From positions 12,154,001 through 12,218,000 of the forward strand of contig CM075989.1 of assembly GCA_038087875.1 (NCBI GenBank): 64,000 nt of DNA, written 5' to 3'. Position numbers and translations under genes: made by a program. Of the stretch, positions 18,778 through 52,440 are shown one piece after another. The stretch is from Malacoraja senta. Its lineage: Eukaryota. The notes below the pieces were generated by a model, which did not search any database, had not been told where the DNA came from, and was given only the letters and a program-made list of their open reading frames with translations. Numbering within the stretch: position 1 is the stretch's first letter; every line of letters begins with the position of its first letter.

Positions 18778-18898
18778 ATGATGCAGCACCTGGTTCTGCA
18801 CGGAGGGCTGCTGCTGGCGCTGCCTCTGTGCCTGACTCTGGATTTTGACTGGGCAAAAGAACATGGCGGATCCTTCTACTATGGGACTTTCCCTGCTG
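18778..18898 (+). CDS. LCTL: Lactase-like protein (gamma-Klotho), exon 1 with signal peptide
   Basis: MMQHLVLHGGLLLALPLCLTLDFDWAKEHGGSFYYGTFPA. Hydrophobic signal followed by the GH1 start SFYYGTFP. Donor G|gtaagt, phase 1. Confidence 0.9.
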
Positions 18899-21104: not shown

Positions 21105-21265
21105 GTTTCTCCTGGGGTGTGGGCAGTTCAGCCTACCAGACAGAAGGAGCTTGGAATCAAGATGGGAAAGGTCTCAGTATCTGGGATGTTTTCACGCATA
21201 AGAAAGGAAAAGTATTCCTGAATGAAACAGGGGACTCATCCTGTGAAAGCTATTATAAATTCAAG
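21105..21265 (+). CDS. LCTL: LCTL exon 2
   Basis: [32 protein letters not shown], the GH1 N-terminal signature. ag/gt junctions. Confidence 0.95.
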
Positions 21266-21770
21266 GTAAGAACATAGAATATGGGTTTGTGTTAGAGTTT
21301 TTCACATCTCAAGGTATTTTGCAGGCAATGATACCCATTTAAGGTGGAATATGGTGAAATTCCATAACAGAATGGGTATGATTGGATCACCCACTGTCAA
21401 TCATGTCTATTGACCACTTTTCTGAGACTGACTAGATTTACAATTCTATATGCAACTATCCTCCATCGCCAAGTATTTCTGGTGAAAATACCTTGTTTTG
21501 ATTACCTAACCGAGTTAATCCTACTTGCCTGCACCTGGCCCTCATCCCAAACCTTTCCAATCCATCAACATGTCCGAGTGTTGTGGTAATGTACCATAAC
21601 ACTCGGACCATTTTTTCAGGTAGCTATTTCCAAATGTGCACCATCCTTTTTGTGAAAAATTTGCCCCTCAGGTCTCTTTTAAATGTTGCCCTCTCACCTT
21701 ATACCTCTTATGCCCTTCGGAAAGATTTTGGGCGTTCGCCTTATCTATGGTCTGTCTGTCTGTCTATCTA

Positions 21771-22804
21771 TCTATCTCTAAAATTCTCATCTTGTTTGTT
21801 ATTATGTATGTCTGTCTGTCTGTCTGCCTGTCTGTCTGTGTCTGTGATGTCCTGAATTACGCCAAAACGGTACACGATAGCGCTACAATTTTGGCCCACA
21901 TTACTCACCATTGTCCTGTGGTGTGTTGTATCAAGTTTTGTTCAGATTAATGGTATATTTTATAAGTTATTGACATTTTAATCTTTACAAAGCCCCACTT
22001 TAAAAAAATCTCTTCCATCTGCACTGGCAGTTAGCAGTGTATGATGTCACAATGGGATCTAATTTACATAATCTGCCCGTCAGCAGTGTTCCACCCCACG
22101 ATGACATCACAATGGGATCTCATTTACTTTTTTAAAAGTCTGTTTTAAAAAACACAACAGCATTCTATTCAGATTGATGTTATATTTTACAAGTAGTTCA
22201 CATTTTAAACTTTAAAAAATTAACTTTTCACTTTAAAAATCAAACTTTTCACTTGAAAACTTGCCCTGCCTGTTAAAATGTTACCAAATGACAGAACACC
22301 CAGTGCAATGAGAGATTTGTTACGTTATCAGGAGAGAGATGGAATGGGGGAGGGGAGACACGACTCCAAGTGCAATGAGAGATTTGTTACATTGTTGTAA
22401 GGAGAGGGAGGGGGTGGGGAGGGGAGGAGGCGAAATGTTATTTAAACATTGTGTTTACTGGGGGAGTGGGATGGGGAGAGGGGAGATAGAGGGAGAGGAT
22501 GGGGGGTAGGGTGGGGAGAGGGGTTATGAAGGGAGGGAGGGAGGGAGTGATCGAGGGTACGGGAAAGGAGAGGGAGGGAGAGGTGATGGAGGGTGGGGGA
22601 GGGGAGGAGGGGAAAGAAGATGGGAGGTGTAGAGGAGGTTGAGGGAGTGCTGGGGATGAGGGGAAATGAGCCGCACCTGTGCAGTTGGGGGCTATGGGTG
22701 AGTGGTGGAATATTGCGTTGGGGGAACGGGTTGCGTTGGGGGAATGGGTGAGTAGTGGAATATTGTGTTGGGGGAACGGGGCCCAATGGGTCCCACTTGG
22801 TCTA
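21771..22804 (+). mobile_element. Non-autonomous Helitron-like element, copy 1
   Basis: TC start. 3' hairpin GGGGCCC-AAT-GGGTCCC followed by ACTTGGTCTA. Homologous to the other two copies. 5' boundary approximate. Confidence 0.7.
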
Positions 22805-23577
22805 TTATATTACGAAAACTCTCATCTTGTTTGTTATTATGTCTGTCTGTCTGTGATGTCCTGAATTACGTCAAAACGGTACACGATAGCTCTACAATTT
22901 TTGGCCCACCTTACCCACCATTGGCCTGTGGTGTGTTGTATAAGGTTTTGTTCAGATTGATGGTATATTTTACAAGTTATTGACATTTTAAACTTTACAA
23001 AACACAATTTTGAAAAAATCTCTTCTATCTGCACCGGCAGTTTGCAGCGCATGACATCACAATGGGATATGACATCACAATGGGATCTAATTTACAGAAA
23101 CTGCCCATCAGCAGTGTTCCACCCCACAATGACATCACAATGGGATCTCATTTACATTTTTAAAAACTCAGTTAAAAAAATTACAGCAGCTTCCACCTCA
23201 CATTCATGTCAAGGTGGGTAGGGAGGGGAGAGTGTTATGGAGGGAGGTAGGGAGTGACTGAGGGTCAGGGAAAGGAGGGGGAGGGAGAGGTGAGGGAGGG
23301 AGTGGGGGAGGGGAAAAGGAGAGGGCAAAGAAGAGGGAGGGTGAAGAGGAGGGGGAGGATGTGCTGGGGATGAGGGGGAATGGAGGATAGCGGTAGGAGG
23401 GATGACGAGGCACAGTTGGGAGGGTTGCCGTGACTCGCGTCACCACGGGGATCTCTGGCGTCACAACGGCAACCTGTCAGCCTGCACAGTTGGGGGCTAT
23501 GGGTGAGTGGTGGAATATTGCGTTCGGGGACCAGCCCTCCCGTGTGACAAGGACACAACGTGTCCCACTTGGTCTAG
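22805..23577 (+). mobile_element. Non-autonomous Helitron-like element, copy 2 (head-to-tail)
   Basis: Same 5' sequence as copy 1. 3' hairpin GGACAC-AAC-GTGTCC and terminal CTAG at 23574-23577. Confidence 0.72.
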
Positions 23578-23729
23578 AAATATTATAAACCTCTATAACA
23601 TAATCCTTCAGGCTCCTATGTTCCAGGTAATTAATTCCTAGCCTGTCCAGCAAACGTTCTAGACCCAGTAACATCTTCATAATTTTCCTCATGCATGCAA
23701 AGCCTGGTTAACACCTGATTTTATTACAG

Positions 23730-23817
23730 GAGGACATTGCCTTGTTGAAGGAATTAAAAGTCAATCATTATCGCTTTTCTATATCCTGGCCTCGAATCAT
23801 ACCAACGGGGATAAAAG
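23730..23817 (+). CDS. LCTL: LCTL exon 3
   Basis: EDIALLKELKVNHYRFSISWPRIIPTGIK. ttacag| acceptor, G|gtaaca donor. Confidence 0.95.
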
Positions 23818-24454
23818 GTAACATCTCTCACTTTACTGTCTTGCTGGGAAGGGAGTCAGCCTTCTCTGAATGCTAGTAAGCTAATGTTAATGCTGTCAGA
23901 ACTGAGCAGATTCCATCCTTGTTCACAGGGAGAAAATGAACTTTAGCATAATCTTTTGTTGCACTTCAGCATCCACAGATTTGCACATAATTGGCAGAGA
24001 GTGGAAGGGTGTCAGGCCGGGTAAAAGTTCTGGGACTAAGCAGATATTAAGTATTTTTACTTTGTAATACAAATCAATTACAAGGAGTTATGGTTTGCAT
24101 TTCTGGTCGCCACATTATAGGCAGGATGTGTAGGTTTGGGAAATCAGATATAATAGCAATGATTAAAAGGCACAGAGAGACAGGAACTGAGGGATATAGA
24201 CCTATATAGATATAGGTAGATGTGAAGTTTACAATGGTGTCATGTTCGGCACAAAGTTTATGGGCCAAAGGGCATAGTCCCGAGCTAAGAGTTCATATGA
24301 CGTCTCTCTTTTCACACTTTTTGGTTTGGAACCCCCTTTAAACATTTTCTGCTTCATAAGCATTTGGCCTCAGTCACCCTGTAAGGGAAGGGAAAGAAGC
24401 TGTGCATTTGCCCACAGCTGTGACAGACCAGGCTTGAAGAACCAGGATGGCATC

Positions 24455-25030
24455 ATATTCATAATCATACTTTATTAGCCAAGTATGTTTTGCAACATAC
24501 AAGGAATTACAGTGCAACATACATGCAACATACAGTCATACCAATAAAAAAGCAACAGAACACACAAAATACATTTTAACATGAACATCCACTACAGTGA
24601 CTCCTCCACATTCCTCACTGTGATGGAAGGATAAAAAAAGTTTTATCGGGGGCCTTCTTTCTCCCGTAGCCGGGGCGATCAAGCTCCTGCATCGGGGGGG
24701 AATCTCAGCTCCCCCGCTCCGGGCGATCTACCCCGGGTTGGGGCTAGTCGAACGTCGTGCGGCTTTTGGAGCTTCCCGACATCGGTCTCAACCCGAGACT
24801 GCAAGCTCCTTGATGTTAAAGGCCGCAGGCCGCAGTTGGAGCATCGAGCCCAGGCAAGGGATCGGCTCTGATGGTAAGTCCACGCCCTGCGGTGGGGCTC
24901 AAAGTCAGTCCCGAGCAGGCCTCCAGCTCCACGATGTTAGGTGGCAGAGTGACCGGAGATACAATCCGGATAACAATCGCATCTCCGGCAAGGTAAGAGA
25001 TAGAAAAAGTTTCCCCCGACTCCCCCGCCC
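24455..25030. repeat. Probable interspersed repeat (GC-rich body, LINE-like tail), family unidentified
   Basis: Abrupt CpG-rich block in an AT-rich intron with a simple-repeat terminus. Confidence 0.4.
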
Positions 25031-25596
25031 ACTACATATCCTTCCTGCAATGGGGCGAACGGAACTGAAATCCACGATTCCTATAATTATTTTGTATTAT
25101 TGAGAAAAAATACCTGTTATGCCCACCACTTTAACCTTGGCTGACACCCTTCCACTCTCGGCCAACCTTGTACAAATTTATGGGTACTGAAGTGTAACTA
25201 AGGATTATACTAAGGTTATTTTCTCTCCCTGTTTCTGTGCTTTGAGTTATGAGGATAAATCTATCATCCTGAGTGAGGTCAGTTAATAGCTGTATACCTC
25301 TGCTTACCAAACTTGCTGATGCTGGGATACTAAGTCAGTATTAAAAATTCCATGCTGAGCAATGACACCTCCCAACCTTTCCTCCCCACTACATCAACTC
25401 CCAAATCTGATCTCCGGCACTGCCACATACAGTAGCCTAGCAGTATTATCACTACAAAAGAGTCTTGATATAACTGTGGGAGGAGGTCCTCACTCTAGGA
25501 AAGTTAGAGTAGAGTATAACAAAGATTGTATTTACAAATAAATGTTTCATTTGTACATTATAGATAATCTATTTCTTATCTTTCAAAATTCTCCAG

Positions 25597-25706
25597 CCGA
25601 GCAAGTGAATGGCAAAGGAATCGACTATTATAATGAACTGATAAACACCCTACAGGAGAGCCAAATTCTGCCCATAGTGACCCTGTACCACTGGGATCTT
25701 CCACAG
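25597..25706 (+). CDS. LCTL: LCTL exon 4
   Basis: [37 protein letters not shown], with the GH1 TLYHWDLPQ motif. Confidence 0.95.
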
Positions 25707-27599
25707 GTCTGTACCAAACGTTTAAATGTGATTTAGGATATACTGGTACAGTTTCAGTCAAGGGAATGCCGAGTTTCAAAGAGACAATAAACCCAACCTT
25801 GCCTGTAGTGTGAGAACAAACAAATAAATGAGCACTGACTCTTCAGCTGAATGTCAGTCACAAAAAGGCAACAATTATACACAATAGCCACATCCCACAG
25901 ATAAATAAAAATAAAAGAGCATAGGCCTCATCCACATGATTAATTTTAACCTGTGCAGGAGGGGACTGTTGTGTTCGTCCTAAGGACCATGCTTTTAGAG
26001 AAAGTGGTCGTGTCGCTCAGAATACTGTGATGCTACAACCCAGTCTTAATCTACTGAATTCTGACATTGCAACCAAAATGATTGCAATCTTTCTCAGCAG
26101 GGGAATCCGCAAGGGTGGGGTGGAGGGAATGGAAAGTGGGAAATCGACCATCTCAATAATCATTTAAAAATTCAATATGATTGTGAGCATACATTTGTCC
26201 ATTTACATCAGAATGCATATATGTGCCTCTCCACAAGATGGCAAATCTGAATTTCTGCACTTCCCCCTGTATGTGAAAAGTCTGGCTTTATTTTACCTTT
26301 TCAGATTTAGGTACTTGTGACCAACTTTAACAACTCTGCTACCACTCTTCCCACCACAGACTGAACGACCAGGGACCAGACGTTCTAGCTCTAGTACAGC
26401 TGTGTTACACACAGGTTCCTATATTACTGTCGGACTAGTGTCTCCACCTATCTGAGTGGGGTTTGATTACTTTGGTTGTGCAGAAGTGTTATTAAGAGAT
26501 TTAATAATGACAATAGATCAGGATTCTTAGTTCTGTGGTGATATAGGATTTAACATCTCTGAGGTTGACAGACTACAGTGGCAACAATGTAACAGCTGAC
26601 ATAATGAACTCCCTCCCTACCCTTATGTGCTATCAGTGGAGCAGGTCCTCATGATCAATTTGGGGTCAACATGCAGATAATCTAATGATCTATAATGTTT
26701 GATGACTGATCAGGTCACCCTTCCCTGGCTGCAATGTCTTTTAAGGTAAAACCCTGCCAGTTATTAACTGATTTAATTGTTACTTCTCCTTTAACATTAC
26801 ACTAAATGTCACATCTCACTCTTCCTTAGTGTAAACAAACAGGATTTCAGACCAGACTAACTTTGCTGCCTGATTTAAAACTGTATCAATGCCACATTTT
26901 GAATTGCATTCTCGTGGCTACACTCAGCTTTAACATATAGTCACAATTAAGTTTAAGATTGGAAAATACAAAATTTAATCTATTCCCGCCACCTGCTCTC
27001 TCCTTTTGAATGCACTGCCTTTATGTCAGGGGTTTATTGGAACTGATATGTAACTTGAACAAACGGTCCCACGAGACACAGAGGAATTGAGATTATAATC
27101 ACTCTGTTCGGATATGAACTCTGTTGAAATGCTCTAACAATATTTATTTTGACTCAATACCTTTGACTATTTAATATTTACAAAGAAATTGCTATGAAAC
27201 CAGCCTTCTTGGAGTCCTTTTTATTACTGTCAAGAATTTCATTGTCTTGGGAAAGGAGTTCAGAAAAGAGCTGTGTTAATCTTAACAAAGGCGTCTCTCT
27301 CCATCTCTTTTCACAGCCTGTACATTTATGGTTCTCTTAGGGCATACTGGGTTATTAAAATATTTTTTCCAATTTCTGTGGATGCGGTCCACAATTCCCT
27401 TTACTGTACAGCCACCTGGCCCTGTTAATGTAAGTACCGTAAACCACATTATATTGGACCAGAAACAAACAACTGCAAGTGCTGGAGTAACTCAGCAGGT
27501 CAGACAGCACCTCTGGAGAACATGAATAGGTGACGATTTGGGTCGAGACTCTTTTTCAGACTCTCAGTCCACAACGAGGCGTGGATTCCAGGTGAGTAG

Positions 27600-28046
27600 A
27601 TGGCCCGGGCCTGCTGACCCAAGGAGAGGTGAAGATTAGTGGAGTCGTTGGTACCGGCCTGCAGGCGGCTGGAGTGCAGGTAAGGGTCGGCAGCGGGCTA
27701 GAAAGCTGTGTGGGCCGGCAGAGGCAGCAGTAGGTCTGGCCTGGAAGCGGCCGGGCAGGGCAGTGTGGGCCAGGGGTGGTGTCGGCATCCCAGCCTAAAA
27801 GCGGCCGGGAAGATGGTGTCGGCAGCCCAGCCTGGAAGTGACTAAGGGTGGCATTGTTAGCCCAGCCTGAAAGTGGCAAGGGAATCGGTGTGGGCCGGCC
27901 TGGAAGTGGCTGGTGGTGGCATCGGCAGCGCACCTGAAAGCCTGAAAGTAGCCCAGCCGGGGAGGCGGTGAAGCCGGTGGTGGTTAGAATCTGCCGCTAT
28001 AACCAAAATCCGTTTTAAGGAGGTTCATTAAAACGAAGATTTACTG
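27600..28046. repeat. GC-rich imperfect tandem repeat ending in a pogo-like TIR remnant
   Basis: Recurrent GGTGTCGGCA(G/T)CCCAGCCTG(G/A)AAG(C/T)GGC units. Ends ...CGAAGATTTACTG|TA. Confidence 0.5.
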
Positions 28047-28244
28047 TACAGTTAGCCATGCTCTTCCTACAGATACCTTCGCCAATTGATCTGTTTACGT
28101 CTGATGACTGGCTTGTTTTTTTTGTTCATCTGTCATGTTAGCCCACTAGAAATTGGTATGCACTACAGCGTGTTTAAAAGAGAAGTTATAATGCATTAAA
28201 TGGCATTTGATTCTCATTTCGTATTTATCTCTATTATTTTTTAG

Positions 28245-28373
28245 GTCCTCCAAAATAAATATGGTGGCTGGCAGAACAGTAGTATGATTAACTTCTTTAA
28301 TGATTATGCCAACCTGTGTTTTGAGAAGTTTGGTGACCGCGTGAAACATTGGATTACTTTCAACAATCCATGG
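28245..28373 (+). CDS. LCTL: LCTL exon 5
   Basis: [43 protein letters not shown]. The acid/base NEP motif reads NNP. Confidence 0.95.
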
Positions 28374-30268
28374 GTACGTTTTATGTCATAATGCAGTTTG
28401 ATTAATTGAACATTAACTTGTGGAACGCAACGCTGGGAGATGAGAGGTATCAGTCACCAATTGTTCAGCACTGATACATTTCGACTCCAGTATTCCTTAA
28501 AAAGCTGTGCAAGTAAAGCCTTTTAGATAGGCATGTGGCTATGCACAAATGGAAGGATATGAATCACATCTACAGGCAGAGCAGATTAGTGTAACTTATC
28601 ATCATGTACAGCATTGACACTGTGGGCCAAACTGTACTGTTCTATGTACATGATTAGAGTTATTTTATTTGTATCTGTTCTAACAATGTAACTCTTCCAC
28701 ATTGCACAATTGTATATATGCTCTCAGTTGTTTGTTTATAAGCAAATTGGCTCTGAACTCTCCCCATTAAAAAAAGCTCACACTTGTATGATTAAACATT
28801 TCTCCATTCTTATTGGATCCAGTTTCAATCTAATGTTAAAGACTTGGTTCCCTGTGCTTTGGTAGCATGATAGCCCATTGCAAAAGTGGCCACACTGTTC
28901 CCAGAAGGAACAGTGAGAAGACTTGCTTTTACATAGTACCTTTTCACACTGCTGAGGTGCGGTGACATACTTTGTTTTGGAAACATGGCAACTACCTTTC
29001 ATACTCAAAATGTTGAGCGCTGCCATGTGTTCAGAACTCTATTTGAAAGTAACAACTAAAATTATTGAAAATGGTTTCAAAATAAATATTAATTATGATG
29101 ACTTGAGACCATCTTTTTCCAACTTTACTTTTCTATATCATTCAGTTGAAGCCCATCTTATACCATTCTCCATGGTGTTTCCATTCTGTTTCATATATTA
29201 ATTGAAAGCATAAGTAAGAAACAAAATTTAAAATATAAAAATTGAACCATAGGATCTAAAATTAATTAGTTCTCAAATATTATTTTTTTGAGAATGAATT
29301 AAGCAAAATTCTCTCCAATTCAACAAACTGTTTATGATCTGTAATGCGATGTCCTCGTCGCAGGCAGTGGCCTGTGATTGGTTAATTACCAGTTTATCCT
29401 ATGTGTTGTGTTGGCAAATTTATGAAGGATTATCCTTGGCAATTTCTTGTTTAACCCATTCGTCTCACCTCTCAAGCTCCACCTCCATTATTGATGTCAC
29501 TCTCAATCTCACATGAGAATTCTATAACCAGACAGAGTCATAGAGTGATACAACGTGGAAACAAGCCCTTCAGCCCAACTTGCCCACACCGGTCAACCTG
29601 TCCCAGCTACACGGGTTTGGTCAATATCGCTCCAAATCTGTCCTATCCATGTACCTAACTACTTCTTAAATGTTGGGATAGTCCCTGCCTCAACTCCCTC
29701 CTCTGGCAGCTTGTTCCATATACCCACCACCCCTCAGCTTCCGATTAAATCTCTTCCCCTTCACCTTAAACCTATGTCTTCTGGTCCTCGATTCGCCTAT
29801 TCTGGATAAGAGACTGTGCATCTACCCAATCTATTCCTCTCATGATTATACACCTCTATAAGATCACTCCTCAACTTCCTGCTCCCAAAGGAATAGAATC
29901 CCAGCCTACTCAACCTCTCCCTATAGCTCAGAAACAATCATTTTTTTGCTCAATGCAGATATCCTGCTGTCAACACTTTTCTTATAAACCTGATGAAAGA
30001 CCACAAAGCAAATATCCCTTGCCAGGCTAATAACTGGTACAAATACTTATTTCTTTCCCACTCTTTGCCACTCGTTTCGAATGACTGCAAGCAAGGAAGA
30101 TGGGTAGACCATGTTTGGGAAAATACCTGGTGCTGGCCTACATGGTTGCAGCTCCATCGTGGGAAATCTAAGTACAATTTCCACTCCTCAGGAGCTTTAG
30201 ATAACAATAGAATAAGTGGGATATGTTTGGACTACCATCAACGGATGCTTATGTATTATATATTGTAG

Positions 30269-30364
30269 TCCATAGCTGTCGAAGGATACGAGGTTGGACA
30301 GCATGCCCCAGGGTTAAAGCTCAATGGAATAGGAGGTTACAGGGCAGCACATAACATTATTAAG
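30269..30364 (+). CDS. LCTL: LCTL exon 6
   Basis: SIAVEGYEVGQHAPGLKLNGIGGYRAAHNIIK. tag| acceptor, |gtaagt donor. Confidence 0.93.
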
Positions 30365-31213
30365 GTAAGTTTCTATATCAAAAAATTGTTTAACAATGAA
30401 ATAAAAGAACACTAAATTCTGATAATCTAGCACACTTGGTACTTTGGTGGTGCTAGACTCACAGATGTTATTATCCCTTTTTGAAATACCAACTAACTTT
30501 TAATTCACTTTATGATAAACTTCCCAGTGAATCGGGTGTTTAGAAGGATGTGGGAATGCGGCTCTGGTGAGTTCAAAGGAAGTATAAGAATGGGGTCTCA
30601 TGAGATTAAAGGCAGTATGGGAACAGCGTCTTCATGAGTTTCAAGGGAATGTAGGATTGGGGCCAGTTAGTTAAATAGGAGCACAGTCAACAGAACCAAG
30701 TGAGCTGGATTCCAATCCATGAGGATTTATGAGAAAACAGATAGTGGATCATCAGTTTTGCTCTATTTGCTTGCAGCCAGCATCTTCCCTGATCTGACGA
30801 GGTCCTCATGCAGCATTCTCCAATCAATTTGCATAAAACAAAATGCAACAGACATGAGGAATTAATCAGTTTTGCCAGTGGTTGAGACCAGGACATGAGC
30901 AGCACATGCATGCTCAGCCTCATAGGATCTGCCATATACCGTACTGGACCTCTGGCAATGCAGCACTGCTTCAGTATTGCACCAAGGCCAAATGGGTTCC
31001 CACAATGTGGCTTCAATCCATGACCAAGGTCGAGGGTCACCAATGGGAGAAGCCTTACTCACCACCTTCTGATGTCTGGTTTTGGAGGAAGGGCTTTTTC
31101 TGTTCCTTTTGGTGGGTGAGACAGCTGGAAATTTTAAATAAGGTTGTGGGGGAGGAAAATGTGAAGAAGCCATGATTTCAGTAACACTCTTGGTGTTGAC
31201 TTCTCTTTCACAG

Positions 31214-31268
31214 GCCCACGCGACAGCTTGGCACACGTACGACAGACTCTGGCGCAGTCGCCAAAAAG
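31214..31268 (+). CDS. LCTL: LCTL exon 7
   Basis: AHATAWHTYDRLWRSRQK. cacag| acceptor, G|gtatcg donor. Confidence 0.93.
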
Positions 31269-32893
31269 GTATCGAGCTCTCAAAAATAAGGAACAAGTCT
31301 CAAACATAAAACAAATAAGTAGCACAGGAGTGAACTGGAACTTCTAGTGTAAAGTATAGTGCATGATTTCACTACTTTCTGCTATATAGATGTGATAGGG
31401 TGATGTATCATCTGTTTCAAGTAGAATTTATGATTCGCAAGCTCCAGACTCAAATAATTCCATTAAAGATTAGAAAGGTTTAAGTTCAGCACATTTTGTT
31501 ATATTTCAGTGAGTATTAATGACTGCGCAGTTCTGCAAAATTGGGACTATCCTCCTTTAAATTGGTGGTTGAGAGGTTTTAAAGAGCTTCATATTGATGA
31601 AAGGGTTTGATAGATTAAATTAAAAAACAACCGTCCCATGGACAAGAAACAGAAACCAGAGAGCATAGATTTAAGGTAATTGGCAAAATTACAAGAAATA
31701 ATAGTATGATATTTTATGCATGTTATTTATACACTGGCTGGGAATGTTGCAAAAGCAGAATAATACCATACACATGTAGATATTACAGATAATTAAACTA
31801 TTTGCTAGATTATGGAGAAAGAAGTTGGGAATAGAACTAAGCTATGTCTTTTAATGCACATTACCACATTATAATGTTTCATAATTCAAAATAGCTAAAT
31901 TCAGTCAGTTTTAAGCAGTGTGCAAAAGATGAGATAAAAGACAAAGAGAGTCAGGGAAGGCCCTTAAGAACATCTTGTGGTTGAAGGATGGCAACAGTGC
32001 TGAATGAATGCCAGGATCACTGAGCCTTAAACATCTGGAGGCCAAACACGAGGGACTTTATCAAATGGCTTACCAAAATCAATTTAGACATCTACTACCC
32101 TTTCCTCAACGGTGACCTGTGTCATATTCTTTAAAAAACCAATCAATTTCGTAAGACATGATCAGCCGTGCTGCCATGCTAACTGCCCCGGAGTAGCCCA
32201 TTCTCTTTCAAATGTGAGTTAATCATATCCAAGAGCTTCCCTACCACTGACATGAGGCTCATCATCATATCATTTCCTGGATTCTTTCTATTTCCCTTCT
32301 TAAACGGGTCATCAATTGCTGTTCTCAGTTCACCAGGACCTCCTTGTGGCGAGAGAAGATAGAGTTCTTCATCATGGCTCTGAAATCTCCTTGCTTGCCT
32401 CTCTCAATAACCTGGGATAGTCATGGAATTCCCTCCCCAACAGCACTGTGAGACCACCTTCAGCAGAAGGATTGTGGCAGGAGAAGGCAGCTGCTCCCAT
32501 TCCATCAAGGGCAATTAGGGATGGGCAAGAAATGCTGGTCTTGCCAGCAACACCCAGATCATGAAAAATAAGTGAATGCAAAAAGGAATTTTAGAAAGTC
32601 TCCAGGAATTGAAAAGTCACATTTGAGCAGTTAAAGAGCATATTGTGAATCAAGAAGTTGACAGACCAGGAGACTACATAGGATAGTACATGGTTTAGTC
32701 CAAAACATAGCAAATATCAAAGCCAAGAGATCTTGACCAGTGGAGAAAGAGAACAAATGGTGGTTGAGGATATAGTGGATGATCTTCAACTCAGGAACCA
32801 TTTTGATTTACAAAAATCACAACTGAAACATATATATTCTAATTTAAAAGACTATTCATGTGGTACTTATTAAACATTATTTTAATATTAAAG

Positions 32894-33055
32894 GCATGGT
32901 GGGTATTTCCATCACAAGTGAGTGGGGAGATCCAGTTGACATTACAAGTCAAAAGGATATTGAGGCTGCTGAGCGATACATCCAATTTAATCTTGGCTGG
33001 TTTGCCAACCCTATTTTCAATGGCGACTACCCTCAAGTTATGAAAGACTGTATTG
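32894..33055 (+). CDS. LCTL: LCTL exon 8
   Basis: GMVGISITSEWGDPVDITSQKDIEAAERYIQFNLGWFANPIFNGDYPQVMKDCI. Confidence 0.95.
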
Positions 33056-33954
33056 GTAAGTATAAAATAATAGGATGGAATAAAGTGAGTGCACACTCCA
33101 CGCACACAGATGCATACACACACAAAGCCTATACAGCAACTTAACCTGACACAACAGAAACTAAAAACAGAGAGTAAATGAATCTGTTTAGACACATATA
33201 ATTCTGATTTTCCAATGGATTATTTAGGGGTCTAAAATGCAACCAGGCAAATGTTACAGAATGTATTTTGTTTTCTTAATATAATTTAAAATGGCACCGA
33301 TTTTGCAGTTCTTTAATTTCCCTTGTTCACTGCAGGCCAGGTGGGAACATGTGACCCCAGAAGTACCGCAGTATGGATGTAAATGCCATCCGATTTAAGC
33401 CTGGCTTTATATTAGGCAGGCAAAGGCAGAGATTCATCATATCATAACGACATGCATGAACAGTGGATGGCAACTCATGATGTTACAGCACCTGTGTCTG
33501 CATCAGTTAAAGAATTTTAAGCAGGAAGCGAAAAAATCCAAAAGTGGTAGATAGAAGGGATTCACAGACACATTGCCTGGGAAAGATACATTGTCCTATA
33601 TGACATCAGAAATGCATGTATAAATTATTTTCATGTTGTTATATATTCAACAGGGACAGTTTTTCTTCTTGTCTACTATCTACTCTGCTGGTCGGAATTA
33701 TTTCCAGCAACTAATATTGCATTCATTCCTACTCTTTCAATTTAATAAAATGTGAAAGATTTTGATTGAATCTGAGCAATGTAAAACTATTTTTATGAAG
33801 ACAATGCAATTCAATGTCACGACTGATAAAATCCAGGACAAAATGGGGCCAGTTCAAGACTTGGGCAAATTTAGCATTGGAGCCAATGGTAGTGTTCAGA
33901 ACATCTAATCTTTGAACTAATTCTAAATAACCACGGTGTTTACTCCATCAACAG

Positions 33955-34229
33955 GGAGAAAAAGTTCACAGCAAGGCCTGGGCAACTCAAGACTGCCTGC
34001 CTTCACTCCACAGGAGAAACACTTCATCAAAGGCACGGCAGACTTTTTTGGGCTGGGTCACTTCACGACCCGTTACATCACTCACAAGAATTACCATTAC
34101 AGCAAGGGACCAAATTATCACACTGATCGTGATTTAGTGGAACTCGTCGACCCACAGTGGCCAGACCCAGGATCTGAATGGCTTTACTCAGTACCCTGGG
34201 GTTTCAGAAGGATCCTGAATTTTATAAAG
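33955..34229 (+). CDS. LCTL: LCTL exon 9
   Basis: GRKSSQQGLGNSRLPAFTPQEKHFIKGTADFFGLGHFTTRY...WLYSVPWGFRRILNFIK. Confidence 0.95.
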
Positions 34230-37032
34230 GTATTTACTACAAATCGGTGACGCGTAATTCAATTTCTCATTTTGGAGTAATGACAAATGATTTACATTTA
34301 TTTATTTCATGATCCCACGACTTGTAAACGTACTATAGGCCAAAGTCCTACTTTCTCAAACCCGCCATCAGTTTGTGCACAGAAAGTCCAACTAACAGCA
34401 ATCTGATGATAACTACACCATCCACTCTTTTACTGAGGGTTAACATTTGGCCAGGACTCAGATGGCATCTTGGTTTAATGTCTCATCTCAGTACTCTACT
34501 TGAATGGTCTTCAAACTCTATAGTGGGAGTTGACTGATCCAAAGACAAGTCCGAAAATGTTTTGCAGTGTTAACCTCAAGCCACAAGTATTCAACCTTTA
34601 GCCTTCACCCAGTAGGTAGTGTTCTATGCTAGCCAAGTGTAACATCAAAAACCTGAAAACATAATCGACCAGTGTGGTTCTGAGGCGGTGTGACATCAGA
34701 ACAGATCTGGTATTTGGTTGAGACATTAAACAAGAGCCCATCTCCAGGAAGAAACAAGACACCCCATTGCAATACTTCAAAAATAGTGTTCTCTCAGTTT
34801 TCAGGTCTATATTTATCTCTCAACCAATTTAACTCCTCCTCAGATTGCTGATAGTGGGATCATAGAACACACAAATGGATTGTTTTCTGCATCATGGCAG
34901 AAAACATTTAATTAGCTGTTAAACACTTTGAATAAATCAATTTGAGTTATTAAATATGCTACATAAATGTGTTCTTTCTTTATAAACATTCATATCCTTA
35001 CACCTACATTCAGTAGGCCATTGTTTGTTCAGCACTGTATAACTTTACTCTGAATTAGTACTGCTGCCCTGCTAAGCCAGCGTGAGCACTCACCAAGGAC
35101 GTTATTAACTCTAATCTGTTCCTTGGCACCAGTTTGCTAACTACGCTTTCCAGCCTCCAGTTTGCATTGTCGATCCATGGTGCAAAGGCTCATTAAATGT
35201 TAGGAGCTCAGATAGGATGGAAACTTCCTGCAAAGTGCAACACCAGTAAATACTTCCCTTCACTGAGCACAAAGATAAAACAAATCTAACAATGAAAGAA
35301 TGTAACAAGCTCTATCTCAGATTCCTATCCTGAGAGGAAAGGTGTGAAGACATTAAAAAGAACCATGAAAAGATTGATGAGAATATTTCTAGAAGTGAGG
35401 CTCTATGAATTCAAGGAAAGATTGGAGAAATTGCAACTGTCCTTTCCAGCAGGAAAGAGTAAAGTATATAAAATGATGAAGGGTCAGGACAGAGTTGATA
35501 GCGGGAGGATGTATCACTGTTGAAGGGCTCCGGGAAATAGAGGTTATGGGCATAAAATAAGAGAGAAGGCACAAGAGGATTTTTTTTTGTACATAGCATG
35601 GTTGGAATCTGTAGTGCATTATCTGTAAGTGTAGTCAAGGCAGGTCCATATCGTCTTCGAGACTGCATATTTATGGTAAGGAATAATTTGCAAGGCTACA
35701 GAGAAGAGGTGGAGTAGGAAGAGGTGGATAAGAAAATAGTGAGCTGCATATATGTATGGCAAACAAAAAAAGCACAATTTCTGAACTCTATTTTGTTCCC
35801 TTATTATAATGGTTGGGTTCATGCTGCATTATGGAAGTACGAGAACAAATGCACCATTAGTTTTGAAAATCTTCTTAAAAAATAAATTTCACAGCCTCAC
35901 CCAGAATTTACCTCATTCCGTTGCCCAGGAAGATGGTGGTCACTCTAGTCCTAGTGGTGGAGTACTTTAGGTAGGCGGCAGTTCCTTCATTTTAACATTC
36001 TCAAAGATAATAAAAGAATAGCAATGGGTCCAAGATGGAGGGAAAGTTAGATTCCATCCACTAGACGGAAGTGTTCGATTTTAAAACAGAAATGGTGTTG
36101 AACTCAACCAATCAAGCTGCATCTATGGAAAGAGTAACCAGTTAATACTTCAGGTTGAAGACCCTTCATAACCAAAACATTAACTGGTTTCTCACTTCAC
36201 AGATGCTTCTTAACTGGCTGAATTCTTCCAGCTTTGCCACTATTGTTCCAAGATCTTTTGGGTTGTCAAGATCACAAGATTGGGACGTGGTGCTGAAGAA
36301 GCTTCATCCATCTGCCACTGTGACAGCCGTGGACAATTTATCCACACTTGTACCGGGATTATAACACAGACTCAGAAGCAGGCCTCTAACTGAAGCTTTG
36401 GAAGATGAACACCATACCCAACATCATTTTTAAATCACATAGAAGTTTAGAAAATATGTTTTTATTAAAAGAAGCAGAACAAACAACATGAAATACATAA
36501 ACAGCAAAAATAACAAAATTCCAGGGAGACATTTCAGACATTTAATTGTGTTAACATAGATTTGAGGTGAAGGGTATGTGTAAGCTCTTGCGTATATACG
36601 TTCATCTGGAAAAAAAACAAAAAGGTTGGTCTCATAAATTGCATATTATTTGTGGAAAAACTGACTTTTTGTGATTCCTCACCCTAATTACGATCCAAAG
36701 GTGCTGAACAAACAAATTACTTTCCAGTCATAAATACCATACATATTTGTGGGAATTTGCACACAGCAACTTCATTTGTTCAGAAATCTCTAGCTCTTTG
36801 TACAAAAAAAAATCACCACATGCATTTAAAACAATACACAATGTAATAGTTCACTCCAGCAGAATTGGCTTCTTTACAATTGGTCAACAATGCAAGACAT
36901 GTTCTGCTTTCTGTCAAGCCTGGCTTTAAAATAAAATTAAAAGTCAGTCTGGATGAGTTCGACTAACAATAAATTTGAAATTTGGGAATGAAATTTTTGA
37001 TTTGCAACACTTTTGTTTTCTATTTGTTTCAG

Positions 37033-37159
37033 AGTCGATATGGTAACCCTAGGATCTATGTGACAGAAAATGGAGTGTCGGAGAAATGGCAGTGTACTGA
37101 GTTGTGTGATAAGTGGCGAATACAGTACATGAATAATTATGTTAATGAGATTCTTAAAG
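37033..37159 (+). CDS. LCTL: LCTL exon 10 (nucleophile motif)
   Basis: SRYGNPRIYVTENGVSEK...NEILK, with the GH1 IYVTENG motif. Confidence 0.95.
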
Positions 37160-38391
37160 GTAGGTCTTCATATCTAAATAAGGCATTTTCCATGATAATA
37201 CATTAAACTTGAATTAATTGCTATTGTTATTCCCCCATGGGAGTGAACAAAAATTAGAAGGCGGGTATTTGTTTTTAAATGAAATTTGGTGGTCTGCTGA
37301 AGGTTAGTTGCATCAATTAGTACATCACACCTTCAGTAGCCTGGATCCAATCCTGATCTCGGGTACTGTCCGCATGGTGATTGCATATTCCTGCAGCCTC
37401 AAAGTGTGTTAATTGCAGAAATCATCTAACATTTTGGTACTAATGCCTCCATATATCTTGCATATTTGGATATTGTTATGAAAATTTAGTTGCAAAAAAT
37501 TGTTTAAATTATACATATTCTAAATAAGTTGAGGAACATAAGGAGTAGGAGTAGGAGTAGTCCATTCGACCTTTCTGAATTTGCTTCACCATTCATCATA
37601 ATCTTAGCTGATCTCCCTCAGCATTGTTTTCCTGCACTATTTCCTTATCCCTCAACTCCCTTTGTATCCAGAAATCTATAAAACTCCTCAGCAAGTGGAA
37701 CTACCCTGTATACAGCTGTCAAGGCCGACAGGTATTTTATCAAAGTTTCAATGAGATCACCTCTCATTCTTGCGTGAGAATACAGACCCAGACCACTAAA
37801 GCTCTATTCTTACGGCAAATTTGCCATGACAGTGGAGAGGCAGGTGGTAGCAGTGTTTGCTCTACATCGTTCTGTAATCAAACAAAATCCACCATGCAGC
37901 AGCTGGATTAAAAAAAGATGAGACAGAGAAAGAGAACGTGGGTGAGCATGACGGAAGGCAGCGAGAGAAAAGGGAACATAAGAGTGAAGATGGAGAAGAC
38001 AGTCAGGGAGAGAAAGCAGAGGAGAGAACTGATTTGATTACGATAGGCAGAGTGAGATGATACAAAGATAGGAGAAATGGCTACTTTTCTCTTATCAATA
38101 AATAAACATCTGCTTATATTTTTAGATGCTGCAATTGAGAACAATCAATCCTGATAGCCTTTTTGAGAAAAAGATGATTTGTAGTTATTTTAGTATCATC
38201 CAACCAAAGCAAACAAAATTCACAGTGGTTTGGACCTAAACCTTTTTTTCTGACTGAAACATTGCTATGTATGTATTATCTGAATTTTTCTTCATGTAAA
38301 TGCTCATGAGATCATGATGAGTTTCCAGCATTTCCTGATGCTATATCAAATCGTTGTGTTTATAATCACATGTGGTTTTGAAACATTGCAG

Positions 38392-38591
38392 CTGTGAAAG
38401 ATGGTGCTCAAGTGAAGGGTTACACATCCTGGTCACTGCTGGATAATTTTGAATGGGATGAAGGGTATTCAGAAAGATTTGGCCTTTACTACATTGATTT
38501 TAAAACCAAACACAAGAGAAGGTATCCCAAGGCTTCAGTTCAATATTACAGGAAGATGATCAGCTCCAATGGATTTCCCAACCAGAGAGAA
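38392..38591 (+). CDS. LCTL: LCTL exon 11
   Basis: AVKDGAQVKGYTSWSLLDNFEWDEGYSERFGLYYIDF...NGFPNQRE. Donor |gtgagt. Confidence 0.95.
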
Positions 38592-40460: not shown

Positions 40461-40524
40461 ATTGAAAACTGGCTGCGTAAGGCCGCTGAGACATGCTCAA
40501 CCACCAATGCATTGCTTGCTGCAG
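40461..40524 (+). CDS. LCTL: LCTL exon 12
   Basis: IENWLRKAAETCSTTNALLAA, an LCTL-specific stalk. Donor G|gtaggt, phase 1. Confidence 0.9.
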
Positions 40525-44500: not shown

Positions 44501-44509
44501 TTTTCCATT

Positions 44510-46284: not shown

Positions 46285-46323
46285 TGAACCACATCCTTTA
46301 CATGATCGTATTGGTTTGTTGAT

Positions 46324-47405: not shown

Positions 47406-49915
47406 TAAATGGGCCTAATTTGTTACTTTTGTTAAAATAAATAGAACCATTAACTGATTACATTTAATGTTGTGGTTATGCATTGTTGATTGTGCTTACT
47501 CAAATAGAGTCAATCAGTGCAGTGAGCACCTGGATTTTAATCCACGGTGTGAAATCACAGAGCTTTGAAATCTTCACGTAGTCACTCACGTGACTCCGAA
47601 GTAAAATAGTAAGATTAAACGAAAACTTACCAGTTTGAAGTTTGATCTTGATTTTATGAGGAGTAACGTTGAGGGATTACGTGCCCTCCGCTCCCACCCT
47701 CATAAAAGGATCAAGCTGGTAGTTCTAAGTCTTTATGCATCTTACTATCATACTTCAGTAATTATCGTCTGTGATTGTCACTCCGCTGCTTTGAAAGATT
47801 GACGCGTGTGCGGCTGGACGGGGTCTTCTTCACGTAATCCCTCAACGTTACTCCTCATAAAATAAAGATCAAACTTCAAACTGGTAAGTTCTCGTTTAAT
47901 CTTACTATTATAGACCAGTTAGCCTGACATTGGTGGTGGGGAAGATGCTGGAGTCAATTATATGAAATAGCGACACATTTGGATAGCAATAGCAGGATCG
48001 GTCCGAGTCAGCATGGATTTACAAAGGGGAAATCATGCTTGACTAATCTTCTGGAATTCTTTGAGGATGTAACTAGGAAAATGGATAAGGGAGAGCCAGT
48101 GGATGTAGTGTACCTGGACTTTCAGAAAGCATTTGATAAGGTCCCACATATGAGATTAGTGGGCAAAATTAGAGCACATCTTAAACCCATGTCCTCTGGT
48201 TCTTGATTCCCCTGCTCTAGGCAAGAGACTCCGTGTGTGTACCTGAGCTATTCCTCTCGTGATTTTATACACCTCTGCAAGATCACCTCTCATCCTCCTG
48301 CGCTCCAAGGAATAGTCCCAGCCTGCTCAACCTCTCCCTATAGCTCAGACAAGTCCTGGCAACATCCTCGTAAATCTTCTCTGTACCTGTTCCAACATGA
48401 TAACATCTTTCATTTGACATGGTGCACAGATCTGAACACAGTACTCAAAATGTTGCCTCGCCAGTGTCTTATATAACTGCAACATGACCTCCCAACTTCT
48501 ATACTCAATATACTGACAAATGAAACCTATAAACAAATTGCAGACACTTGCCATCATGGCACTCTTTCCTGGATATGGTCAAAGGCAGAAGAGCTCCAAG
48601 AAGTTATGGTTTGATACATTATATTGTATTCTTACATGTTATTTTGGATGTTAACAATGGCACCAGAAAGATTCATAACCATTTTGGGGGGGAAAACACA
48701 GCAATTAATTCAGTGCAAACCCTCCCAATTATAAAATATTGCAAAGGTAACACAAAAAGTTATTATCTGCAGAATAACCCTGAAATATAGATTACGTGGA
48801 CAGGGAAACAGAAGCATGGCAAAGCTTGATTTACTCACAGGTTATGAATGACTACATCAGCTGACTTGAATGATCAAAAATAAGGTTTGTACTGGGAAAC
48901 AGAAAAGTTGGGTAACCGTGAATGAGCAAAATGGCTGCCTTGGTCAAGTAGATGTTCCACTACCTTCACAAATTGACTGTATTAAGAAATTGTCACCACT
49001 TTCTCTATTCCAGTCAACAAAATGTTTCATAGTTCTATACAAATTATCAGCAGTGAATTAAATATTGCTTTGACTCCAAATTCCAAATAAAGCATAAACC
49101 AAACTATAATATTGAAACAATGCCACTATCTAGATGGAAAGATTTAATTTGCAGCTACATCAGACCATTCCTCTATTTGCAAAATGAAGATAGCCCATTC
49201 ACAAAAGGAACATATCCCATTTCATTAAAAATTCAGAGAATAAATGAAATTTGTTACAAAAGACATCATCAACCAATTAGAAATTGAACTATTTAAGTTA
49301 CTCACTTCCCAGCTGTCTGTAGCCTTTTTCATTTTGGTTTTCAGATACTTAATAATCAGTTCACATTAGGACAGGCAAGACCATTGTTTTTTTTTTCCTT
49401 AAAGGGACCATAAAATCTAATGCACACATCACAATAGGCTGCAACCTCTACCTGCCTTTTAAGAACGTTAATTTTAAGATAAAGATTTCTGGGGTTCAAA
49501 ATAAATTTAGCTTTCCCCCTAAATAAAAGCATTTTTGTTAAAAAAAGTTCATGTTTTGAAACTCCAATGATTCCATTAATAATATACTGGCTTATGTTTT
49601 ACAACTGCATTCTTCTGATTCTATTACACTTTATTTGAAATAAACATGACAATACATACATCAATAATTAATGTTTTGAAAAAGAAATTCTACTAATCCT
49701 AACACTATTAAACACACACACCACAGAACATGTTGCACCACTCAAGGTTATATTCTCCATACATTTACTAATTTCCACAAACACTCGGTTGACCAATGCA
49801 TCATTTTTTTATAGTGCTTTTAAAGTGACAATGACATCACTTTATTTAAAATTGCAGGAAGGTATAGGAGGACCTCTCATGGGCTAATGGGTTCTTTTCT
49901 GTTTGCCCTTTTCAG

Positions 49916-49989
49916 CTGGAAGAACAGACGGAACAAATGAGAAGCAGGCACATTTGCCAACAGTTTGGCCAGTGCATGATGAAGTTTAG
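49916..49989 (+). CDS. LCTL: LCTL alternative terminal coding exon ending in HDEV (soluble isoform)
   Basis: Branch-like ctaat and a long polypyrimidine tract ending ttttcag|. Phase 1 join gives AGRTDGTNEKQAHLPTVWPVHDEV*. Confidence 0.7.
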
Positions 49990-51635
49990 GTATTAAGGGC
50001 TTGATGTCATTTTTTCAGTGCCAAGATCAAGTCTTGAAAGCAACAAAGAAAGATGCGCACATTAGCCTTTTAGGTTACAAATCATGACTACAATAGGTTG
50101 AGATTACTTTGTCCTTTCATTTTTACAATTTCCCTAAAATAATTACATTGAGTAAATATTTTGAAAAGTTGTGCATTTTGATTTTAATGCTTTCCTATTT
50201 AAAATATTATATTGTTTTTAACTAAAATGATTCATTTTCTGCTAGTTGAGTTGTTTGGTTTATAAAATCACAATATCAGACAGCTTTCAAATTCTTGGGC
50301 TGCTGGAATATAACAGCAGGAGCCAGTTGGCCCATTATATCCGTGCCACCTCTCAAAGCAAACCCATTCTTCCCCAAAAAACGTATTTCCCTGCTTCATA
50401 TTTTCTCTCACAGGTCCATCATCATCCGCCCTTCCCCTCCCCCTAATTCCCTCTGTTTCTCTTAAATCTACACAAGAGAAATTTAAAGGAGCCAATTAAC
50501 CTACTGGTATGTCTTTGGGATGTAACATGCAAACTCCAAACAGACAACACCAAACTCAGTACCACAAAAGTGCCACCTGCAAAGTGAAAAAAGCTAAGAA
50601 ACTTGCTGGGAAGAGTGGAAAAAGCAAATCTACAGGTGGCAAAAGCTGGAATAACGTTTTCAGAAAGAGTTATATAATTGCACAAACAATGAGGCCAACC
50701 AGATTTACTTCCAAGCCATAAGAACTTCAATAAACACATACAAAATGAATAGATATGATGGACAGAGAATTACGTGAGGTTGTATAGATCCTGGTTGGAG
50801 ATGCAGGGGAGGAGAAAAGTAAACCCACAAGACAGACAATGAGGGTGCCATTAGAAGATCAAAATGTCCATGATAGAAAGAGTTGGGTTTGTTGTTCTTG
50901 ATGAAGCAACAGAGCCAATAGATGTTACGAGCATTGAGTTATCATAAATCGGCCCTTACAAAATTCTCAAGTCATTACCCAAAAATTTGACATTTGGAAT
51001 ATAACTTACAGAATTTGTAAAAAGTAAATAAACAAAATTATTTTTTTTCACCTTAATTCTTGACTTGTTTGCAGATGACTCAGCTTCACTTTATGGAAAA
51101 TTTAACACGGGCCATTTTCTAGGACACAACTGCCCCGTAATCTGGGAGTTGCTTTTTTTAAAGAAAGAACAGATGGTGGCTATGAACTGGGTCCAGGCGC
51201 CCATGGCAGCAAGATATAAACAAGCTCAATGGGGAGCAATTGAGTAAGCATGTACGGGTCTTGAAAAGGGGAACAAGGATTAGACAAACAAAAAAAAACA
51301 GAAAATAGGCAATGAAGACATGTGAGAGTAGCTGACCTCTTTAAATGATTGACTCAAAGATATTTGGTTACATGGACCCGAGTCAGAGAATTAGAAATGG
51401 CAAGGAACATGCTTACGATGCTTTAATACAAATAGGTTATTAGCTCAGTATCTCTCATGTTCTGCTGAAATTTACAGGCACAATCCAAATACATTAAAAG
51501 GAAAATAATCATTGATACTTTTGAGTGGTTTCAAGATATAATTTCTATATTCCTATGACATTACTACTGGAAAATGATCAATGTCTTAGCTCAAACTTAC
51601 AGAATTTGTAAAAAGTAAATAAACAAAATTATTTT

Positions 51636-52034: not shown

Positions 52035-52138
52035 AAACTTCTAACCTGTAAACCTGTCAAGGTTGTATCTCTATCTGTAGCTTATGTGCTTCAAAGGAAT
52101 TTAATGCTTCATTTATGAGATCTTGCCATAAAAAGTAG

Positions 52139-52177
52139 AAGAGCACAACACTGCTGTCAATATTCTCAGCAAAAGAT
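52139..52177 (+). CDS. LCTL: Candidate 39-nt LCTL cassette microexon
   Basis: tag|AAGAG...AGAT|gtaaca, phase 1-1, encoding EEHNTAVNILSKR(Y). Weak polypyrimidine tract. Confidence 0.35.
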
Positions 52178-52327
52178 GTAACACAGTTTTTATTAAAAAC
52201 AGAATGGGCACATGATAAAAGAATTTTATCGCATATTAAATAAATTCACTTGATTTAGTGCAAACAAATTATTTCTCAAATAATTGAAAGGATTATTTGC
52301 ATCATGTCTTTTTGTTTTGACTTTTAG

Positions 52328-52440
52328 ATCCTCTCATCAATCATATGGAGATGGTGACTGAGATTGTAGTTCCAACCGTGTGCACCCTATGTATACTCCT
52401 GAGTGCTATTTTACTGATGTTCCTACTTCGGAGAAAATGA
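52328..52440 (+). CDS. LCTL: LCTL last exon (transmembrane helix and stop)
   Basis: ttttag| DPLINHMEMVTEIVVPTVCTLCILLSAILLMFLLRRK*. The 13 exons sum to 1701 nt = 566 aa. AATAAA at 52898. Confidence 0.93.

What the first reader, a model, noticed from the sequence alone, without database searches (positions are those of the whole stretch)
49860..49995. Alternative LCTL exon swaps the membrane anchor for a KDEL-like HDEV tail
Seen: a strong acceptor (ctaat branch-like motif, ~25-nt polypyrimidine tract, cag) lies 2.4 kb upstream of the TM exon. Joined in phase 1 to exon 12 it reads AGRTDGTNEKQAHLPTVWPVHDEV-stop, giving a 553-aa protein with signal peptide and no TM helix. The stop TAG is followed immediately by gtatta, a possible donor. 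Splicing on to the last exon would then put the stop at the final junction, and by the 50-nt rule it should escape NMD. Known: C-terminal KDEL/HDEL variants drive ER retrieval, and LCTL is described as single-pass. Inference: a splicing switch between membrane-anchored gamma-Klotho and a soluble ER-lumenal, or leakily secreted, isoform. I recall similar ...VWPVHDEV ends in teleost predicted lctl isoforms but have not verified this.
Basis: partly seen in the sequence, partly recalled or inferred. Interest (0 to 1): 0.8.

Follow-up and report, generated by a model that had tools for sequence, protein, structure and literature searches.

The report
Ancient anchor-free gamma-Klotho splice form
A 74-base alternative exon of the lens gene LCTL (gamma-Klotho), found in gene models from sharks to frogs, is predicted to replace the protein's membrane anchor with a short tail ending HDEV, which likely makes a soluble form held back only weakly in the ER, because its last residue is valine rather than the leucine of a standard retention signal.

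Summary
Exon 49916-49989 joins exon 12 in phase 1 and gives a 553-aa LCTL with no transmembrane helix, ending WPVHDEV-stop. It matches an existing RefSeq skate model (Amblyraja radiata isoform X2) at 549 of 553 residues.

The tail is ancient. 31 of 364 fetched proteins end in HDEV, from 28 named sharks, rays, ray-finned fishes, coelacanth and amphibians. None ends in HDEL, and 0 of 41 sampled amniote proteins carry the tail. A teleost genomic copy has the same 74-nt exon, and 10 of 10 synonymous sites are identical, against 34 of 89 in constitutive exons, so the RNA is constrained too.

Junction reads were not shown. The stop-at-last-junction layout should escape NMD.

ER retention is the weak link. 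A systematic KDEX screen names L, F, M and I, not V, as working last residues, and a review ranks HDEV last in binding. Best reading: a soluble isoform with a tuned-down KDEL-receptor signal (0.45). It is in databases but was not found in print.

The parts
18778..38591 (+). lctl coding exons 1-11 (18778-18898, 21105-21265, 23730-23817, 25597-25706, 28245-28373, 30269-30364, 31214-31268, 32894-33055, 33955-34229, 37033-37159, 38392-38591): N-terminal hydrophobic leader and one GH1 barrel
   Evidence: (GT donors throughout, AG acceptors for exons 2-11)
40461..40524 (+). exon 12 (64 nt, phase-1 donor CAG|GTAGGT), last exon shared by both isoforms; part of predicted helix 506-536
49884..49888 (+). 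branch-point-like CTAAT (CTAAC at the matching place in the teleost copy)
49892..49915 (+). pyrimidine tract and CAG acceptor; most pyrimidine-rich of 13 acceptors, conserved with a teleost
49916..49989 (+). alternative 74-nt exon giving the 24-residue tail ending WPVHDEV and the stop codon (49987-49989)
49965..49992 (+). 28-nt block identical between skate and teleost, spanning the last 8 codons and the first 3 donor bases
49990..49995 (+). candidate donor TAG|GTATTA; 5 of 9 consensus matches, like constitutive donors at 31268 (5/9) and 34229 (6/9); use not shown
52138..52167 (+). likely relic of the in-frame 15-residue exon that bony vertebrates place before the TM exon (7 of 10 residues match)
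52328..52440 (+). coding part of the last exon: TM helix and 3-residue cytosolic tail (membrane isoform); would be 3' UTR in the HDEV isoform

Best explanation
This 74-nt alternative lctl exon, conserved from cartilaginous fishes to amphibians, is predicted to end the protein before its membrane anchor, likely giving a soluble luminal gamma-Klotho whose HDEV end would act as a weak KDEL-receptor signal that slows but does not stop secretion. Shown on sequence: splice signals, frame, loss of the TM helix, an invariant W..HDEV-stop, and nucleotide constraint at the exon's 3' end. Inferred: (1) the exon is included in a regulated fraction of transcripts, either spliced on to the last exon or running into the intron; (2) either way no exon junction lies far downstream of the stop, so the mRNA would escape NMD; (3) the tail is a free, unstructured 18-residue arm after a linker helix (AlphaFold prediction); (4) His at -4 raises and Val at -1 lowers receptor affinity, so the form would cycle in the ER-Golgi and leak out when the receptors are saturated. 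The cell would thus set the ratio of anchored to soluble LCTL by splicing, probably in lens, where zebrafish Lctla and Lctlb proteins are detected.
For: 31 of 364 stored proteins end in HDEV, from 28 named species plus one unnamed record; W at -7 and H, D, E, V are invariant in 31 of 31. The exon-derived tail is 19, 21, 24 or 25 residues, so indels keep the frame (that set was picked for ending in HDEV). The unpicked genomic ORF P0088 reads the exon in another frame with 22 codons against 24, also a multiple of three. Teleost locus L001 has the same 74-nt exon between exon 12 and the TM exon. Its acceptor scores 29 against 11-20 for three constitutive acceptors, and 15 of 2000 shuffles reach it. 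The tail matches HDEL at -4, -3 and -2 and sits at the extreme C-terminus. HDEL binds 10-fold tighter than KDEL, and variants widen the dynamic range (PMC8248988, abstract and passages). Retention is graded by the -1 residue, L > F > A (PMC7617889, passages). A review lists HDEV among bound but weakest peptides (PMC12328878, passage). Model mean pLDDT is 90.7, with residues 536-553 below 50 and coil from 537. Lctla and Lctlb are listed in zebrafish lens proteomics (PMC12232379, passage and supplement rows).
Against: In the systematic AKDEX screen the -1 position favours L and F, then M, with I above 20% of cells; V is not named (PMC2140024, section 7 read, figure not seen). No stored LCTL has drifted to HDEL (0 of 364), which strong-retention selection would be expected to allow. 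All 10 synonymous sites in conserved codons of the exon are identical to the teleost's, against 23/43 two-fold and 11/46 three- or four-fold sites in three constitutive exons (one pair only), so RNA-level constraint alone could freeze the peptide. The receptor structure makes no contact at -6, so the conserved W and P need another reason. No junction-spanning contig was displayed. All HDEV proteins are predicted models, not peptides.
Confidence: 0.45

Rival explanations
1. The isoform is simply secreted. The exon's job is to supply a stop before the TM helix, and its 3' end is frozen by splicing-regulatory sequence (enhancer plus weak donor), so the likeness to HDEL is a relic or a coincidence with no effect on traffic.
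For: 28-nt identical block and 10 of 10 identical synonymous sites. Three further teleost records read the same bases in another frame as GQCMMKFRY. V is not named as working at -1. A soluble form by splicing is the proposed precedent in alpha-Klotho (listing).
Against: A three-of-four match to HDEL with a hydrophobic last residue right before the stop is unlikely by chance (one search found it at one stop among 845 acceptors). Position -5 varies V/L and -6 P/Q while H, D, E, V never vary. In Ascaphus a second model (P0240) reads HDEV and continues into the next exon out of frame, which implies a donor placed differently from the skate's while HDEV is kept (inferred from protein models).
Confidence: 0.27
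2. The W-P-[VL]-H-D-E-V C-terminus is a ligand for a different partner (a luminal or extracellular protein, or the GH1 barrel of a second LCTL molecule), and needs Val specifically.
For: Invariant W at -7 and near-invariant P at -6 lie outside the KDELR contact zone. Val is never replaced by Leu. The barrel lacks its acid/base Glu, so an acidic tail could in principle complement it.
Against: AlphaFold leaves the tail unplaced (pLDDT about 30). No partner is known. The D-x-V end resembles a class III PDZ ligand (recalled), but PDZ proteins are cytosolic and this protein has a hydrophobic leader.
Confidence: 0.12
3. The exon is a regulatory dump. Inclusion diverts transcripts from the membrane form and the product is unimportant or the RNA is degraded, as reported for the alternative alpha-Klotho mRNA.
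For: Nucleotide-level conservation of exon and acceptor is typical of regulated exons. Alternative alpha-Klotho mRNA is reported to be an NMD target (PMC8255843, passages). A long 3' UTR is likely.
Against: The stop is the exon's last codon, so no junction lies more than 50 nt downstream in the skate, and at most 45 nt even if the bony-vertebrate 15-residue exon follows. The frame is kept through several indels.
Confidence: 0.1
4. HDEV is a fully effective ER-retention signal in fishes and amphibians, giving an ER-resident glycan-binding or chaperone-like LCTL.
For: His at -4 gives tenfold higher affinity. HDEV itself is not mentioned in the screen's main text (0 occurrences), so it may be untested. 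Non-mammalian receptors were not examined here.
Against: Val at -1, and HDEV ranked last in binding.
Confidence: 0.05

Closest known systems
LCTL / KLPH / gamma-Klotho, membrane isoform
   Same: Same gene, same single GH1 domain and linker; 562/566 identical to RefSeq skate isoform X1. Described as a type I membrane glycoprotein needed for lens sutures (PMC13168428, abstract and passages).
   Different: The HDEV isoform has no TM helix. No paper naming it was found, although predicted protein models carry it.
Alternatively spliced 'secreted' alpha-Klotho
   Same: A Klotho-family member losing its membrane anchor by alternative splicing.
   Different: The alpha-Klotho transcript has a stop upstream of further introns and is reported to be an NMD target with disputed protein (PMC8255843, passages). 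The LCTL form keeps the whole ectodomain, places the stop at the last junction and adds a conserved tail.
KDEL/HDEL/RDEL ER-retrieval signals read by KDELR1-3
   Same: Extreme C-terminal H-D-E-hydrophobic on a predicted soluble luminal protein, on a predicted free arm.
   Different: Val at -1 instead of Leu, Phe or Met; HDEV is the weakest in the quoted binding order.
Membrane versus secreted switching by alternative 3' exons, e.g. IgM mu-m/mu-s and sFLT1 (recalled, no call)
   Same: One gene gives an anchored and a soluble ectodomain through an exon upstream of the TM exon.
   Different: Here the soluble tail resembles a KDEL-receptor ligand, and polyadenylation versus cassette use is unresolved.
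KDEL-tailed plant ER-body GH1 glucosidases such as PYK10/BGLU23 (recalled, no call)
   Same: A GH1 barrel with a C-terminal retention-type tetrapeptide.
   Different: Those carry a canonical constitutive KDEL and are active enzymes; any likeness would be convergent. None of 147 new GH1 cluster representatives had HDE in the last 40 residues.

Membership tests
LCTL / gamma-Klotho | single GH1 domain orthologous to LCTL | tested here: met
   PF00232 exon hits; 549/553 to the RefSeq lactase-like isoform; barrel model pLDDT 90.7; SNAPC5 exon upstream in the window
LCTL / gamma-Klotho | acid/base Glu replaced, nucleophile motif kept | tested here: met
   NNP in the skate and in 162 stored proteins; TENG in 246
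LCTL / gamma-Klotho | C-terminal single TM helix | tested here: not met
   absent from the HDEV isoform (max 0.51), present in the 566-aa isoform (2.63)
KDEL-type ER retrieval signal | tetrapeptide at the extreme C-terminus of a soluble secretory-pathway protein | tested here: met
   stop follows V; hydrophobic leader and no TM by hydropathy only
KDEL-type ER retrieval signal | K/H/R at -4, D at -3, E at -2 | tested here: met
   H, D, E in 31 of 31; criteria
KDEL-type ER retrieval signal | L or F (M weaker) at -1 | tested here: not met
   V in 31 of 31; V not named among working residues
KDEL-type ER retrieval signal | accessible, unstructured tail | tested here: met
   predicted only: residues 536-553 pLDDT below 50, coil from 537
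KDEL-type ER retrieval signal | pH-dependent KDELR binding and ER retention in cells | not testable with these tools
   needs binding and secretion assays
NMD-coupled poison exon | stop more than 50-55 nt upstream of the last junction | tested here: not met
   the stop is the last codon of the exon; the next exon appears terminal
NMD-coupled poison exon | nucleotide conservation beyond coding need | tested here: met
   10/10 synonymous sites against 34/89; one skate-teleost pair
Cassette exon (both splice sites used) | junction reads on both sides | tested here: inconclusive
   joint table swamped by a repeat; exon 12 lay outside the stretch laid

The most novel reading that the evidence does not exclude
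Jawed vertebrates ancestrally switch gamma-Klotho by splicing between a membrane co-receptor and a soluble form carrying a naturally detuned KDEL-receptor ligand (high-affinity His, low-affinity Val). This would make HDEV a natural Val-ending retrieval signal, outside the XX[DE][FLM] motif used to list human KDEL-like proteins. It would act as a release valve that secretes the protein when receptors are saturated, and the switch was lost in amniotes.
Probability: 0.25. Interest if true: 0.75.

Novelty: new variant of a known kind. Interest (0 to 1): 0.52.

Why it matters
Gamma-Klotho is the least understood Klotho and is treated as a membrane protein only. A soluble isoform kept since the split of cartilaginous and bony fishes implies a second role away from the membrane, and it is directly testable in zebrafish, where a predicted lctla isoform carries the tail, and in frogs. 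If HDEV gives graded retention, it widens the ER-retrieval code to Val-ending signals that motif screens skip. If it does not, the exon is still a clean, ancient membrane-to-soluble switch, unlike the contested NMD-prone alpha-Klotho splice form.

Tried and rejected
RNA evidence: the run search with the last exon listed 9 runs, none on record as RNA ('no RNA holder listed'). Four were laid on 49600-53100. X1 and X2 (one sample of a related organism, RNA only guessed) each have a contig that ends at 52326, on the AG of the TM acceptor, where DNA run X4 continues; by my reading of the record coordinates it runs about 2.9 kb past 53100. Both have depth in the two bins holding the exon and none in bin 49717-49833, and both also cover much of the downstream intron. 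The listed joints and loose ends were all from a high-copy repeat at about 51640-52000 (77 joints and 998 loose ends not shown), so neither junction was seen. I count this as inconclusive, not as support.

The tail-region protein search had only 6 candidates and missed known teleost HDEV forms, so it says nothing about absence in amniotes. The first fold (30-row alignment) failed (pLDDT 34.9) and was discarded. No special RNA structure at the exon (z 0.28). The zebrafish lens supplement holds protein-level tables; the tail peptide had 0 hits, which is uninformative. Literature searches for KDEV with KDEL and retention (0 papers) and for Val-ending variants (irrelevant hits) gave nothing. The primary KLPH knockout paper and two KDEL-receptor papers were not held, so KLPH's reported localisation and the primary HDEV binding data were not read; the review cites Raykhel 2007 for the binding order, but HDEV does not occur in that paper's main text, and its figures and supplements were not seen. 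Earlier scan findings: none. A complex prediction with KDELR was not run, because it could not separate Val from Leu. Rejected: chance ORF or annotation artefact (conserved splice signals and frame in a teleost genomic copy); dual coding in the +1 frame (seen only in 3 ab initio or genomic ORFs). P0081, labelled lamprey, was set aside as probably teleost in origin.

Full report
Observation. The window holds a complete lactase-like (LCTL, gamma-Klotho) gene of a skate-like fish: 12 shared coding exons from 18778 to 40524 and a last exon at 52328 that encodes the TM helix. Inside the 11.8-kb last intron, 49916-49989 has a branch-like CTAAT, the most pyrimidine-rich acceptor of the gene's 13 (0.86), and a frame that continues exon 12 in phase 1 to WPVHDEV-stop. 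The two models are 553 and 566 aa and match stored RefSeq Amblyraja radiata isoforms X2 and X1 at 549/553 and 562/566. The HDEV form has no hydrophobic window after the leader. Of 845 AGs in the intron, only the 4 inside this exon lead to a KDEL-like end.

Conservation. Three homologue searches (the first and third listed 120 of 209 and 120 of 223 hits) and three cluster look-ups (at most 15 members listed per cluster) gave 364 proteins, including fragments and a few non-LCTL sequences. 31 end in HDEV: 7 shark and ray species, 15 named ray-finned fishes (paddlefish and both teleost paralogues, including zebrafish lctla), coelacanth, 5 amphibians and one unnamed record. W at -7 and H, D, E, V are invariant; -6 is P in 30 of 31 and -5 is V or L. 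The exon-derived tail is 19, 21, 24 or 25 residues. None of 41 amniote proteins (18 turtle, 1 tuatara, 22 mammal) has the tail. That is a partial sample without birds, squamates, mouse or human, so loss in amniotes is a lead, not a result. Neither of the 2 lungfish proteins has it.

One orthologous genomic locus was obtained: L001, a teleost lctla-type contig found with a pattern degenerate at synonymous positions. It has the same order (exon 12, 74-nt exon, TM exon), a conserved branch point and tract (alignment score 29 against 15, 11 and 20 for constitutive acceptors; 15 of 2000 shuffles reach 29), and 28 identical bases across the last eight codons and the donor. In codons with the same residue, 10 of 10 synonymous third positions match, against 23 of 43 two-fold and 11 of 46 three- or four-fold sites in exons 11, 12 and the TM exon; for the last eight codons alone the chance is about 0.001. 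Three more teleost records read the same stretch in another frame with the same nine residues. So the exon's end is constrained as RNA as well as, or instead of, as protein. This rests mainly on one sequence pair.

Splicing outcome. The donor after the stop scores like two constitutive donors of this gene, and its first three bases are conserved in L001. Direct RNA support was not obtained (see Tried and rejected). An Ascaphus model (P0240) reads through HDEV into the next exon out of frame, while sister models stop at HDEV. I infer that in this frog the donor overlaps the Val codon and that the HDEV end arises when it is not used, so cassette use versus read-on into the intron is open. Both put the stop at or beyond the last junction and should escape junction-dependent NMD (established rule, recalled). 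That contrasts with alternative alpha-Klotho mRNA, reported as an NMD target (PMC8255843, passages).

Protein. With a 102-row alignment AlphaFold gives a confident GH1 barrel (mean pLDDT 90.7), a helix at 506-536 and an unplaced tail at 536-553. The tail is therefore predicted to be free, with no sign of docking on the barrel. The barrel has Asn in place of the acid/base Glu, so it is probably not an ordinary glycosidase.

What HDEV does. It matches HDEL at three of four positions, at the extreme C-terminus. HDEL binds KDELR tenfold better than KDEL, and signal variants are proposed to widen dynamic range (PMC8248988, abstract and passages). Retention falls from L to F to A at -1 (PMC7617889, passages). 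In the systematic KDEX screen L, F, M and I are named as working and V is not (PMC2140024, sections 7 and 8 read, figures not seen). A review ranks HDEV weakest (PMC12328878, passage). By the -1 criterion it is not a member of the canonical signal class, but it may work like a weak one. That Val never drifts to Leu argues against selection for strong retention. It fits a tuned weak signal, a different partner, or RNA constraint. I commit to the weak signal at 0.45, plain secretion at 0.27, another partner at 0.12, a regulatory dump at 0.10 and full retention at 0.05.

Novelty. Searches for lactase-like/isoform/Klotho, LCTL/KLPH/lens, HDEV with KDEL, KLPH with ER, lctla/lctlb and the tail peptides (0 papers) found no description of this isoform; these were read as search listings only, and the library lacks most subscription papers. 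[quoted passage not shown] Membrane-to-soluble splicing is a known kind of switch. The deep conservation, the NMD-safe layout and the Val-ending HDEL mimic make this a new variant of it. Interest 0.52.

Noticed in passing
window 52138-52167 (+): Reads EEHNTAVNIL, 7 of 10 identical to a second, in-frame 15-residue exon present in 78 of 319 stored proteins (ray-finned fishes, amphibians, turtles) between exon 12 and the TM exon. The skate copy lacks a pyrimidine tract, and no stored shark or ray protein includes it, so it is probably a relic. None of the stored mammal proteins shows it.
   Followed up: partly
window 28245-28373 and 37033-37159: The GH1 acid/base Glu is replaced (NNP in skate and most fishes; SNP or SSP in others) while the nucleophile motif TENG is kept.
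   Followed up: partly
window about 43200-47400 (+): DIRS-like retrotransposon in the last intron: reverse transcriptase (44973-45980), tyrosine recombinase (46632-47402) and a weak PCIF1-family hit (45883-46281), with a 54-bp tandem array and an exact 91-bp duplication.
   Followed up: partly
window 8448-8657 (+): SNAPC5 exon upstream of lctl; two teleost gene models fuse the same two Pfam families (P0052, P0058), which points to conserved adjacency.
   Followed up: no
protein P0081: Labelled Lampetra planeri, but its C-terminal 75 residues are identical to teleost lctlb models; probably contamination, so lamprey status is unknown.
   Followed up: no
window 51640-52000: Very high-copy repeat that dominated the read laying.
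   Followed up: no
window 52326-53100 and beyond: In a related organism one contig runs unbroken from the TM acceptor for about 3.7 kb, suggesting a long 3' UTR (RNA status guessed).
   Followed up: no
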